From Escherichia coli (lineage in GTDB: Bacteria; Pseudomonadota; Gammaproteobacteria; Enterobacterales; Enterobacteriaceae), in NCBI RefSeq assembly GCF_965641715.1, contig NZ_OZ282453.1: a DNA stretch of 64,000 bases. One strand, written 5' to 3'. Below are positions 39,701 through 42,700 of this stretch, in pieces. The first letter of the stretch is position 1. Every line of letters begins with the position of its first letter. Made by a program: the position numbers.

Positions 39701-42700
39701 CCAGGAAGCCCAGCGTTAGCGTTGGTTTACGTCCCCAGCGGTCAACAAGGCCGATTGCGATAAAGGTGGCAAGTACGTTGGTCAGGCCGACAATCACTGT
39801 CCCCCACATTTGCTCGGTAGTGTTGGTATAACCCGCCAGTTCGAAGATTTTCGGCGCGTAATACATGATGACGTTCATCCCGGTGAATTGCTGCATTACC
39901 TGTAACAGTACGCCAAGGAACACCGCGCGGCGGAAGTTGCTATTCTCTTTAAACAGCGCCCAGCCACTCTGTTTAACCTGCAAACTTTCACGGATTTCAT
40001 CCAGTTCGCGTTTCGCTTCCGCGCTGGTGTCACGCAGGCGTAGCAGCACGCGTTCGGCATCAACAAAACGGCGTTTGGCGGCAAACCAACGTGGGCTGTC
40101 TGGCAGGAAGAAGACACCAATCAGCAGCAAAATTGCCGGGATGATAATCACACCCAGCATCCAGCGCCATGCACCGGTGTAGCTGAAGGCAGTATCAGAA
40201 AGATAAGCACCGAGGATCCCGATAGTGATCATCAACTGATACATCGAGATCATACTGCCGCGAATTTTTTCCGGCGCAATTTCAGAGAGGTACAGTGGTG
40301 CGGTATAAGAGGCCACACCTACCGCCAGCCCCAGCAGAACGCGGGAAAGAATCAGTACTTCAACGTTTGGCGCAGCCGCAGAGAACAGCGAACCGGCAAC
40401 AAACAAAATTGCGCCGATCATCAGGCTCTTTTTGCGCCCGAGTTTAAAGGAGAGCCAGCCGCTGCCCACCGCACCGACTGCCGCACCGAACATCATGGAG
40501 CTTACGACCCATTCTTGCGTGTGCGAAGTAATCTGGAATTCATCTGCAATAAACGGCAGTGCGCCAGCAATTACACCGATATCCAGGCCAAAGAGTAATC
40601 CCGCCAGAGCGGCAAGGAAGCAGACGAAAAACGTCATTGCCTTGTTTGACCGCCCCTGTTTTTTAGCGTCAGGCATGATGCCCTCCAATATGGTTATTTT
40701 TTATTGTGAATTAAGATAGGTGAGTACGACGTAAAAAGATGTGAAGCAAATCACATCAGTGTAATCGCTTACACTAACATTTATCTTAGTTATGATTTAA
40801 GTGCATGAAAATAATTGAGTTATATCATCATAGATTAAACGCTGTTATCTGCAATTAAGACTTTACTGAAAAGAAATGTAACAACTGTGAAAACCGAATA
40901 ATAATATGAAAATATTACAAATCTTTGTCTGTTGTGGTTGGTGTAATCGGTTTCAGTTGTGATGATAATTTGCGGTGAAACGTGATCAGGAAGAATGATG
41001 TTATTGTGCAGGCGGTTTTTTTGCCGGATGCGGCGTGAACGCCTATCCACCGCGGTGAGGTAAAAGAAAAAGGCCAGCGCGAGGCTGGCCTTTGAAAGCA
41101 GGTGAAGAAAGATTACTTCAGACCGGCAGCATCGCGCAGCAGCTGCGCTTTGTCGGTTTTTTCCCACGGGAAATGTTCACGACCAAAGTGACCGTATGCT
41201 GCGGTTTCTTTGTAGATCGGGTGCAGCAGATCCAGCATCTGAATCAGACCGTATGGGCGCAGGTCGAAGAACTCACGTACCAGCAGAGTCAGTTGTTCAG
41301 AAGGCACTTTCTCAGTACCGAAAGTTTCTACCATGATGGAAGTCGGTTCAGCCACGCCGATTGCGTAGGAAACCTGAATTTCACAACGATCGGCCAGGCC
41401 AGCAGCAACGATGTTTTTTGCAACATAACGTGCTGCGTACGCAGCGGAACGGTCCACTTTTGATGGATCTTTACCAGAGAATGCTCCGCCACCGTGACGT
41501 GCCATGCCGCCGTAGGTATCAACGATAATTTTACGACCAGTCAGACCGCAGTCACCCATTGGGCCACCGATAACGAAACGACCGGTCGGGTTGATGAAGA
41601 ATTTGGTGGCAGAAGTCAGCCATTCAGCGGGCAGAATTGGCTTGATGATCTCTTCCATTACCGCTTCTTGCAGCGATTTCTGGTCGATCTCTTCAGAGTG
41701 CTGAGTGGAAAGCACGACAGCATCAATACCAACGATTTTGCCGTCGTCATACTGGAAAGTCACCTGGCTTTTCGCGTCCGGGCGCAGCCACGGCAGAGTG
41801 CCATTTTTACGCACTTCAGCCTGACGCTGTACCAGACGGTGTGCATAGGTGATAGGTGCTGGCATCAGCACGTCGGTTTCATTAGTTGCGTAGCCAAACA
41901 TCAGACCCTGGTCACCCGCGCCCTGTTCCAGCGGATCGGCACGGTCAACGCCCTGGTTGATGTCAGGAGACTGTTTGCCGATAGCGCTCAGAACCGCACA
42001 GGAGTTAGCGTCAAAGCCCATGTCGGAATGCACATAGCCAATTTCGCGAACGGTGTTGCGGGTGATCTCTTCGATGTCTACCCAGGCGCTGGTGGTGATT
42101 TCGCCGCCAACTAAAACCATGCCGGTTTTTACGTAGGTTTCGCAAGCAACGCGTGCTTTCGGATCCTGTTCGAGGATCGCGTCTAAAACGGCATCAGAGA
42201 TTTGGTCAGCAATTTTGTCAGGATGCCCTTCAGAGACGGACTCGGACGTAAAAAGGTGTTTTGCCATATTTAATATCACCTAAAGAGAATTTGGTTAGCT
42301 CAAACTGTTGTGTGGATTTTCTGTGGTAGCGGATCCTACCACGACTCTGCAGGTTAAAAACACTGGCAGTCTGAGTGTTAATCGGTATGGATGGATTAAC
42401 ATCTGGATGGCTATTTTAGGTCAATTCTTCACCCGATTTCCACTTTTTTTTGAATCGTGTCTCATTCTGTTAAAAACGTGGCTGGAAATTTTTCCTGACA
42501 ATGCCGGCATTCTGCGTATTTATCTTTTGCAATTTTCTGCCATTGTGGGGTATAAAACGCGGCGCGCGGCTTAAATAAAAAGCACACGACGTTTCTTTCG
42601 TGTTGCCACTTCCAGCCGGGTTGAAATCAGAGTTTTGGCTTGTGGGTTCGTCTTAACAGGCGGCCGTGGAGGTGATACGAAATAATGAACCGTTGTCTGC

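What the first reader, a model, noticed from the sequence alone, without database searches (positions are those of the whole stretch)
40741..40774. GalR/GalS operator-like palindrome in the galP promoter
gtgtaatcgcttacac is a near-perfect match to the GalR-family operator pattern, and a weaker related element (gtgaagcaaatcac) lies just beside it. This fits the known galactose-regulon control of galP.
Basis: partly seen in the sequence, partly recalled or inferred. Interest (0 to 1): 0.2.

Follow-up and report, generated by a model that had tools for sequence, protein, structure and literature searches.

The report
Known galP GalR operator plus CRP site
The 16-bp palindrome is the already published galactose-repressor (GalR/GalS) operator in front of the E. 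coli galactose transporter gene galP, while the "weaker related element" beside it is the cAMP-CRP activator site of the same promoter, not a second repressor site; all of this is textbook-level regulation.

Summary
The window is E. coli. The finding lies in the metK-galP intergenic region, with both genes on the minus strand, and this region is base-for-base identical to K-12 MG1655 from 40640 to about 41010.

- **Main palindrome (40759-40774).** GTGTAATCGCTTACAC matches the GalR consensus GTGNAANCGNTTNCAC with no mismatch. It is the only such match in 64 kb (0.02 expected). It is the top-scoring site for a GalR matrix built without the galP sites. It is the published galP operator, which gave the strongest GalR ChIP-chip signal in K-12.
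- **Second element (gtgaagcaaatcac).** This is not GalR-like. Its best GalR score is -2.9 bits, against at least 14.9 bits for bound sites; its half-sites are 2 bp too close and it lacks the central CG. It sits inside TGTGAAGCAAATCACA (40740-40755), a perfect CRP core that scores 16.6 bits and is listed as the galP CRP ChIP-seq site in ETEC.
- **Architecture.** The order is operator, 3 bp, CRP site, 21 nt, then the -10 hexamer. This spacing equals that of galE P1, which implies GalR at about -60.5 and CRP at about -41.5.
- **Related sites.** A second operator lies 182 bp upstream (40941-40956). A published NagC operator covers the inferred transcription start.
- **Conservation.** The module sits upstream of galP in 39 species.

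Verdict: real, functional and already known.

The parts
40759..40774 (.). Promoter-proximal GalR/GalS operator of galP. Reads GTGTAAGCGATTACAC in the sense of galP. Centre is about -60.5 from the inferred start.
   Evidence: Exact consensus match, unique in the window. GalR matrix rank 1 at 17.1 bits. Identical to the K-12 operator 3088186-3088201, which has the top GalR ChIP-chip signal of 115.4 (PMC5110547). Unconstrained positions 4, 10 and 13 are invariant in 39 species.
40740..40755 (.). cAMP-CRP binding site core, TGTGATTTGCTTCACA in the sense of galP. Centre is about -41.5, a class II position.
   Evidence: Perfect TGTGA-N6-TCACA, unique in the window. CRP matrix score 16.6 bits. Listed as the CRP ChIP-seq site for galP in ETEC H10407 (PMC4287617). 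PgalP is inactive without cAMP-CRP (PMC4073488).
40941..40956 (.). Distal GalR/GalS operator, CTGAAACCGATTACAC in the sense of galP. It lies 182 bp centre-to-centre upstream of the proximal operator, at about -242.5.
   Evidence: The only 1-mismatch consensus hit in the window. GalR matrix rank 2 at 16.3 bits. Published as K-12 operator 3088004-3088019 (PMC5110547). Of 36 galP loci with enough upstream sequence, 35 have a GalR-matrix site of 11 bits or more, 33 of them 181-184 bp upstream; the search pattern did not require this site.
40713..40718 (-). Inferred -10 hexamer TATCTT of the galP promoter. The inferred transcription start is at about 40705-40707.
   Evidence: It lies 21 nt downstream of the CRP core, the same spacing as TATGGT in galE P1. 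Positions 1, 2 and 6 (TAnnnT) are invariant in 39 species. The start site was not mapped here.
40693..40715 (-). NagC operator cttaattcacaataaaaaataac, overlapping the -10 hexamer and the start region.
   Evidence: The sequence is listed as the NagC site upstream of galP in PMC3098098 and is present in the window. NagC repression of galP is cited.
39282..40676 (-). galP coding sequence (464 aa, ATG at 40676), the regulated gene.
   Evidence: Annotated as galP in 5425 E. coli genomes. Matches the sugar porter family TIGR00879 at 5e-152. Translation begins [12 protein letters not shown].
41069..41093 (-). Intrinsic terminator of the upstream gene metK, which marks the upstream end of the galP control region.
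   Evidence: 10-pair stem with 6 GC pairs followed by a T-run. The metK stop codon lies just upstream.

Best explanation
The stretch 40740-40774 is the core of the E. coli galP promoter control region and holds two different protein-binding sites side by side.

- The 16-bp palindrome at 40759-40774 is the promoter-proximal operator bound by the LacI-family repressors GalR and GalS when galactose is absent.
- The adjacent 16-bp element at 40740-40755 is the cAMP-CRP site. CRP bound there, at about -41.5, is required to activate the weak promoter (-10 hexamer TATCTT).

GalR sits one protein-width upstream of CRP, at about -60.5. This is where the RNA polymerase alpha C-terminal domain docks at class II CRP promoters. 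From that position GalR blocks CRP-dependent activation, so transcription needs both cAMP and galactose (AND logic).

Repression is reinforced by a second operator 182 bp upstream (40941-40956), probably through a GalR-GalR loop, and by NagC bound over the start site.

Shown here or in the cited papers: the site sequences, the matrix scores, GalR and CRP occupancy in vivo, CRP dependence, and conservation. Inferred: the exact start site and hence the -60.5/-41.5/-242.5 positions, the alpha-CTD mechanism (by analogy with galE P1), and looping.
For: - **Identity with K-12.** The control region is identical to K-12, and the region is annotated metK-galP in 5425 of 5426 E. coli genomes.
- **GalR consensus.** There is one exact match against 0.02 expected. 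With the GalR matrix, the two galP operators rank 1 and 2 in the window.
- **Published GalR binding.** Both operators are listed, and galP gives the top ChIP-chip peak (PMC5110547).
- **CRP site.** The core is a perfect match scoring 16.6 bits, and it is the listed CRP ChIP-seq site for galP (PMC4287617).
[quoted passage not shown] - **Spacing.** Operator, 3 bp, CRP core, 21 nt, -10 hexamer is identical to galE P1. At galE P1, GalR bound at OE (-60.5) contacts alpha-CTD and blocks open complex formation (PMC3488240; PMC5110547).
- **Conservation.** The composite module was found in 40 species genomes, where I estimate about 0.03 by chance. In 39 of them it lies 63-66 bp upstream of a galP ortholog.
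- **Distal operator.** It is conserved at 181-184 bp in 33 of the 36 loci with enough upstream sequence, although the pattern did not require it.
- **Within E. coli.** The 39-bp module is at least 99% identical in 5281 of 5426 complete genomes.
- **NagC.** The operator sequence is published (PMC3098098).
Against: - The transcription start was not mapped here, and the primary galP promoter papers (El Qaidi 2009, Weickert & Adhya 1993, Semsey 2007) are not in the held library. The -60.5/-41.5 numbering rests on spacing analogy with galE P1 and on the conserved TAnnnT hexamer.
- The cross-species set was selected by the pattern itself, so invariance of the 22 specified bases carries no information. 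Only the unconstrained positions, the location and the distal operator count as evidence.
- Several expected taxa are absent from the hits, including Klebsiella and the main Salmonella enterica representative. The exact module is therefore not universal among galP-bearing enterobacteria.
- Looping between the two galP operators is inferred from conserved spacing, not shown.
Confidence: 0.95

Rival explanations
1. One reading: both elements are GalR/GalS-type operators, one strong and one weak, forming a tandem repressor site.
For: Both elements start with GTG and end with CAC, and both are partly palindromic.
Against: The 14-mer has 8 nt between GTG and CAC instead of 10, and it has no central CG. 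Its best GalR matrix score is -2.9 bits, against a minimum of 14.9 for bound sites. Extended by one base on each side, it is a perfect CRP core and the published CRP ChIP-seq site. GalR papers list only the sites at 40759-40774 and 40941-40956 for galP.
Confidence: 0.02
2. The palindrome at 40738-40757 followed by TTTTT on the minus strand acts as an intrinsic terminator or attenuator for transcripts reading through from metK.
For: The simple terminator scan flags it as a 7-pair stem followed by a T-run.
Against: Only 3 GC pairs. The stem is simply the CRP dyad. A much stronger terminator (10 pairs, 6 GC) already follows metK at 41069-41093. The loop and spacer bases vary freely between species while TGTGA/TCACA is kept, which is the pattern of a protein site. 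That comparison is weakened because the pattern itself selected for those bases.
Confidence: 0.02
3. The match is a chance occurrence of a short palindrome in AT-rich intergenic DNA and has no function.
For: None beyond the shortness of the motif.
Against: Only 0.02 exact matches are expected per window. Two GalR-type sites and a perfect CRP core lie together in one 220-bp stretch in front of a gal-regulon gene. Binding in vivo is published. The module holds its position across at least 15 genera.
Confidence: 0.01

Closest known systems
E. coli K-12 galP promoter control region (GalR/GalS operators, CRP site, NagC operator)
   Same: The sequence is identical from the distal operator to the start codon. 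The operator strings are the same as those published for K-12 3088004-3088019 and 3088186-3088201. The NagC operator string is also the same.
   Different: Nothing in the control region differs. The window differs from K-12 only further upstream: a 13-bp insertion near 41049-41061 and three substitutions between the metK stop and about 41010.
galE (galETKM) P1 promoter: OE operator at -60.5 plus CRP site at -41.5
   Same: The spacing is identical: a 16-bp GalR operator, 3 bp, a 16-bp CRP core, 21 nt, then the -10 hexamer. In both cases a second operator allows looping. The same module precedes galETK in Photobacterium aphoticum.
   Different: - galE has a second promoter (P2) that CRP represses, and an extended -10 that makes P1 partly CRP-independent.
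- The galE CRP site is imperfect (TTTAT...TCACA), whereas the galP site is perfect.
- The second galE operator is internal (+53.5, 113 bp away), whereas the galP one is upstream (182 bp away).
- PgalP is inactive without CRP, and it also needs NagC for full repression.
mglB promoter of the gal regulon
   Same: It is also co-regulated by CRP and by GalR/GalS through the same operator family.
   Different: At mglB the repressor and activator sites partly overlap (PMC2516365). At galP they are adjacent and do not overlap, being separated by a 3-bp gap.

Membership tests
GalR/GalS (LacI-family) operator: element 40759-40774 | 16-bp hyphenated dyad GTGNAANC.GNTTNCAC with a central CG | tested here: met
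   0 mismatches, unique in 64 kb, 0.02 expected. 7 of 8 dyad pairs are complementary.
GalR/GalS (LacI-family) operator: element 40759-40774 | Consensus bases at the genetically critical positions 3, 5, 9 and 15 (as stated in PMC5110547) | tested here: met
   G3, A5, G9 and A15 are present in GTGTAATCGCTTACAC.
GalR/GalS (LacI-family) operator: element 40759-40774 | Matrix score within the range of sites bound in vivo | tested here: met
   17.1 bits, against a range of 14.9-22.9 for 18 ChIP-chip sites with galP left out. Rank 1 in the window.
GalR/GalS (LacI-family) operator: element 40759-40774 | Occupied by GalR in vivo, and GalR-dependent repression of the downstream gene | not testable with these tools
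   Published for the identical K-12 sequence: ChIP-chip ratio 115.4, and galP is up-regulated in a galR deletion (PMC5110547).
GalR/GalS (LacI-family) operator: element 40741-40754 (the 'weaker' element) | 16-bp dyad with GTG and CAC arms 10 nt apart, a central CG, and a matrix score in the range of bound sites | tested here: not met
   The arms are 8 nt apart and there is no central CG. Best GalR score is -2.9 bits, rank 888.
cAMP-CRP binding site: element 40740-40755 | TGTGA-N6-TCACA core and a matrix score in the range of bound sites | tested here: met
   Perfect core, unique in the window, 0.12 expected. 16.6 bits, against a median of 13.0 for 106 ETEC ChIP-seq sites with galP left out.
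cAMP-CRP binding site: element 40740-40755 | Occupied by CRP in vivo, and the promoter depends on cAMP-CRP | not testable with these tools
   Published: the ETEC H10407 ChIP-seq peak is assigned to this exact 16-mer (PMC4287617). PgalP is inactive without cAMP-CRP (PMC4073488).
Class II CRP-dependent promoter | CRP site centred near -41.5 relative to a mapped transcription start | tested here: inconclusive
   The start was not mapped here. The 21-nt spacing from the CRP core to a conserved TAnnnT hexamer equals that of galE P1, where CRP is at -41.5. This points to a start at about 40705-40707.

The most novel reading that the evidence does not exclude
The centre-to-centre distance between the two galP operators is held at 181-184 bp in 33 of the 36 galP loci with enough upstream sequence, spanning 15 or more enterobacterial genera, while the DNA between them diverges. 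This could mean that galP is repressed by a phase-dependent GalR-GalR (or GalR/GalS-NagC) loop with a conserved geometry unlike the 113-bp gal repressosome. The GalR-operator/3-bp/CRP-site cassette may also be an ancient portable module, since it is shared with galETK of Vibrionaceae. Neither idea would change the basic picture of galP regulation.
Probability: 0.3. Interest if true: 0.2.

Novelty: already known. Interest (0 to 1): 0.04.

Why it matters
This finding matters little for discovery. It is the well-studied control region of a model-organism gene, experimentally characterised by ChIP, reporter assays and in vitro work.

- **Annotation.** It is a correct landmark: it fixes the galP promoter, the true ATG at 40676 rather than the TTG at 40688 of the longest ORF, and the logic by which galactose, cAMP and GlcNAc signals converge on the transporter.
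- **A lesson for motif reading.** A GTG...CAC palindrome next to a GalR operator is not necessarily a second operator. Half-site spacing and the central CG distinguish LacI-family operators from CRP sites.
- **Strain engineering.** This region is the target when GalP is derepressed for glucose uptake in PTS-minus production strains.

Tried and rejected
- **Primary papers not held.** I tried to read the primary galP promoter papers to get the mapped start and footprints: El Qaidi et al. 2009 by DOI, Geanacopoulos & Adhya 1997 (PMC178683) and Hunziker et al. 2010 (PMC2919941). None is in the library.
- **Coordinate search.** A full-text search for K-12 coordinates 3088252-3088256, looking for a genome-wide start-site table, returned only unrelated numeric matches such as PubMed ids.
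- **Reviews without positions.** PMC7907822, PMC10519446 and PMC5401889 mention GalR, GalS or NagC control of galP but give no site positions.
- **Promoter scan.** The sigma-70 consensus scan found no minus-strand promoter in the region. This is expected for a weak, activator-dependent promoter with a poor -35, so it was not used as evidence against.
- **Protein-anchored scan not run.** I considered an unbiased, GalP-protein-anchored scan of genome contigs for phylogenetic footprinting. I chose the roughly 20-fold cheaper DNA-pattern scan because the feature is already known. The cost is ascertainment bias, which is stated.
- **Exact-string lookup.** Searching for the nupG and cmt CRP-like 16-mers as exact strings in K-12 loci L043 and L044 found nothing. 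L044 may not have been available to the script; for nupG the ETEC site differs from the window by one base, which may be why. I did not pursue it.

Full report
**Where the finding lies.** The window is Escherichia coli. A 551-bp stretch around the finding matches 5425 of 5426 complete E. coli genomes, and the features under the match are annotated metK and galP. Both genes are on the minus strand. galP runs from 40676 (ATG) down to 39282, and its translation starts [12 protein letters not shown]. The metK stop codon is near 41113, followed by a strong terminator at 41093-41069. Aligned to K-12 MG1655, the region is identical from about 41010 down to the galP start codon. The only differences are a 13-bp insertion and three substitutions nearer to metK.

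**Checking the observation.**
- The 16-mer fits the GalR consensus GTGNAANCGNTTNCAC (as given in PMC5110547) with no mismatch.
- It is the only exact match in 64 kb; dinucleotide-preserving shuffles give 0.02.
- The only one-mismatch hit in the whole window is 182 bp away in the same intergenic region, at 40941-40956.
- I built a GalR weight matrix from the 18 ChIP-chip-inferred sites of PMC5110547, leaving galP out. The site at 40759 is rank 1 of about 128,000 positions (17.1 bits; training sites 14.9-22.9), and 40941 is rank 2 (16.3 bits).

The main observation is therefore real and far beyond chance.

**The second element is something else.** As a GalR site the 14-mer fails:
- Its GTG and CAC arms are 8 nt apart instead of 10.
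- It has no central CG.
- The best GalR matrix score of any placement over it is -2.9 bits, rank 888.

Extended by one base on each side it reads TGTGAAGCAAATCACA (40740-40755), a perfect TGTGA-N6-TCACA CRP core. This is the only exact match in the window, with 0.12 expected. A CRP matrix built from 106 ETEC ChIP-seq sites, with galP left out, scores it at 16.6 bits. That is above the training median of 13.0 and second in the window. The same 16-mer, TGTGATTTGCTTCACA, is the site assigned to the CRP ChIP-seq peak upstream of galP in ETEC H10407 (PMC4287617).

**What the literature says about these sites.**
- PMC5110547 lists two galP operators in K-12: CTGAAACCGATTACAC (3088004-3088019) and GTGTAATCGCTTACAC (3088186-3088201). 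These correspond to window 40941-40956 and 40759-40774.
- In that paper's ChIP-chip experiment the galP region gave the highest GalR signal of all (115.4), and galP was one of only three promoters up-regulated in a galR deletion.
[quoted passage not shown] PMC2516365 shows the CRP/GalS feed-forward behaviour of this promoter in vivo.
- The NagC operator cttaattcacaataaaaaataac (PMC3098098) is present at 40715-40693 on the minus strand. NagC repression of galP is cited.

**Anatomy and inferred mechanism.** In the sense of galP the region reads: GTGTAAGCGATTACAC, TGA, TGTGATTTGCTTCACA, 21 nt, TATCTT, then AATTCACAA. The galE P1 region of K-12 reads: GTGTAAACGATTCCAC, TAA, TTTATTCCATGTCACA, 21 nt, TATGGT, then TATTTCA(+1). 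The spacings are identical. At galE, the OE operator is at -60.5 (PMC5110547).
- By analogy, the galP start is at about 40706 (+/-1).
- That places GalR at -60.5, CRP at -41.5 (class II), the distal operator at -242.5 and NagC over +1. It gives a 30-nt leader with a GGAGG Shine-Dalgarno sequence at 40686-40682.
- This numbering is an inference; I could not retrieve a mapped start.
- At galE P1, GalR bound at OE contacts the alpha C-terminal domain of RNA polymerase and blocks open complex formation, and the two operators loop (PMC3488240).
- The most likely mechanism at galP is the same. GalR or GalS bound immediately upstream of CRP occupies, or captures, the position used by alpha-CTD at class II promoters and so cancels CRP activation. 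This would be reinforced by looping to the distal operator and by NagC at the start site.

**Conservation.** A scan of one genome per species (100,044 species) used the composite pattern GTGNAANCGNTTNCACNNNTGTGANNNNNNTCACA, which has 22 specified bases.
- My estimate of the chance expectation is about 0.03 (6x10^11 positions divided by 4^22). The scan gave 40 hits.
- Thirty-nine hits lie 63-66 bp upstream of the ATG of a galP ortholog (at least 90% amino-acid identity) and downstream of metK. The genera include Escherichia, Salmonella, Citrobacter, Enterobacter, Lelliottia, Pluralibacter, Cedecea, Buttiauxella, Trabulsiella, Siccibacter, Leclercia, Huaxiibacter, Pseudocitrobacter, Pseudescherichia and Pseudenterobacter.
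- The specified bases are invariant by construction, so they carry no information. Operator positions 4, 10 and 13, which the pattern left free, are also invariant (T, A, A).
- By contrast, the 20 bp upstream, the 3-bp linker and most of the CRP spacer vary, with mean identity 0.53-0.65.
- The inferred -10 hexamer keeps TAnnnT in all 39 species.
- The distal operator was not part of the pattern. Of the 36 galP loci with enough upstream sequence, 35 have a GalR-matrix site of 11 bits or more upstream of the module; 33 are 181-184 bp away, mostly 182, and two lie at 168 and 172 bp.
- The fortieth hit, in Photobacterium aphoticum, has the same cassette upstream of galE-galT-galK. The operator/CRP cassette is therefore shared by galP and the gal operon.
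- Within E. coli, the 39-bp module is at least 99% identical in 5281 of 5426 complete genomes. One variant seen (L008) changes only a free operator position and CRP position 6.

**Limits.**
- The species set is pattern-selected, so it does not give the fraction of galP-bearing species that keep the module. Klebsiella and the main Salmonella enterica representative are not among the hits.
- The start site, the alpha-CTD mechanism at galP and looping are inferred.
- The primary galP promoter papers were not available.

**Verdict.** The feature is real and functional, and it is already known in detail. Novelty: already known. Interest is very low.

Noticed in passing
L038 649-683 (Photobacterium aphoticum), genes at 811-4220: The same cassette (GalR-type 16-mer GTGTAAACGTTTACAC, 3 bp, perfect CRP core TGTGACTACAATCACA) lies about 130 bp upstream of galE-galT-galK in a member of the Vibrionaceae. 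It was the only non-galP hit of the composite pattern in 100,044 species genomes.
   Followed up: partly
window 40941-40956 and 36 related loci: The distance between the two galP operators is held at 181-184 bp (mostly 182) in 33 of the 36 galP loci with enough upstream sequence, although the intervening sequence diverges. Two loci have 168 and 172 bp (L018, L030).
   Followed up: partly
window 40693-40715 compared with L004-L041: The NagC operator sequence over the galP start is found as such only in the Escherichia loci. Other genera carry a different stretch, 2 bp longer (for example ctttacatcgataaaactgataac), so NagC control of galP may be lineage-specific or may use a diverged site.
   Followed up: no
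window 41049-41061: A 13-bp insertion (ACCTCACCGCGGT in the galP sense) relative to K-12, between the metK terminator and a REP-like palindrome (ggataggcgttcacgccgcatccggca). Three substitutions lie nearby.
   Followed up: no
window 23299-23314: A strong CRP-like site, TGTGATATGGATAACA (16.8 bits), about 60 bp upstream of the expected nupG start. The ETEC ChIP-seq table lists TGTGATGTGGATAACA for nupG, a one-base difference.
   Followed up: partly
window 51592-51607 and 51636-51651: Two CRP-like sites (12.4 and 15.6 bits), 44 bp apart, about 170-230 bp upstream of cmtB (51822-52265, + strand). They lie in the divergent region between cmtB and a minus-strand ORF.
   Followed up: no
window 50536-51444 (- strand): A 302-aa ORF between tktA and cmtB with a membrane anchor and an alanine/glutamate-rich coiled-coil tail, which looks SPFH/band-7-like. 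I did not check whether K-12 has a counterpart here: one search covered only yggP and cmtA, not the tktA-cmtB interval. It may be strain-variable. No family search was run.
   Followed up: no
window 40738-40757 (- strand): The CRP dyad followed by TTTTT is flagged as terminator-like by the simple scan (7 pairs, 3 GC). This is most likely a by-product of the palindromic protein site.
   Followed up: partly
window 40676 vs 40688: The mechanical ORF list starts galP at a TTG at 40688 (468 aa). The real start is the ATG at 40676 (464 aa), preceded by GGAGG at 40686-40682 and conserved in all orthologs.
   Followed up: yes
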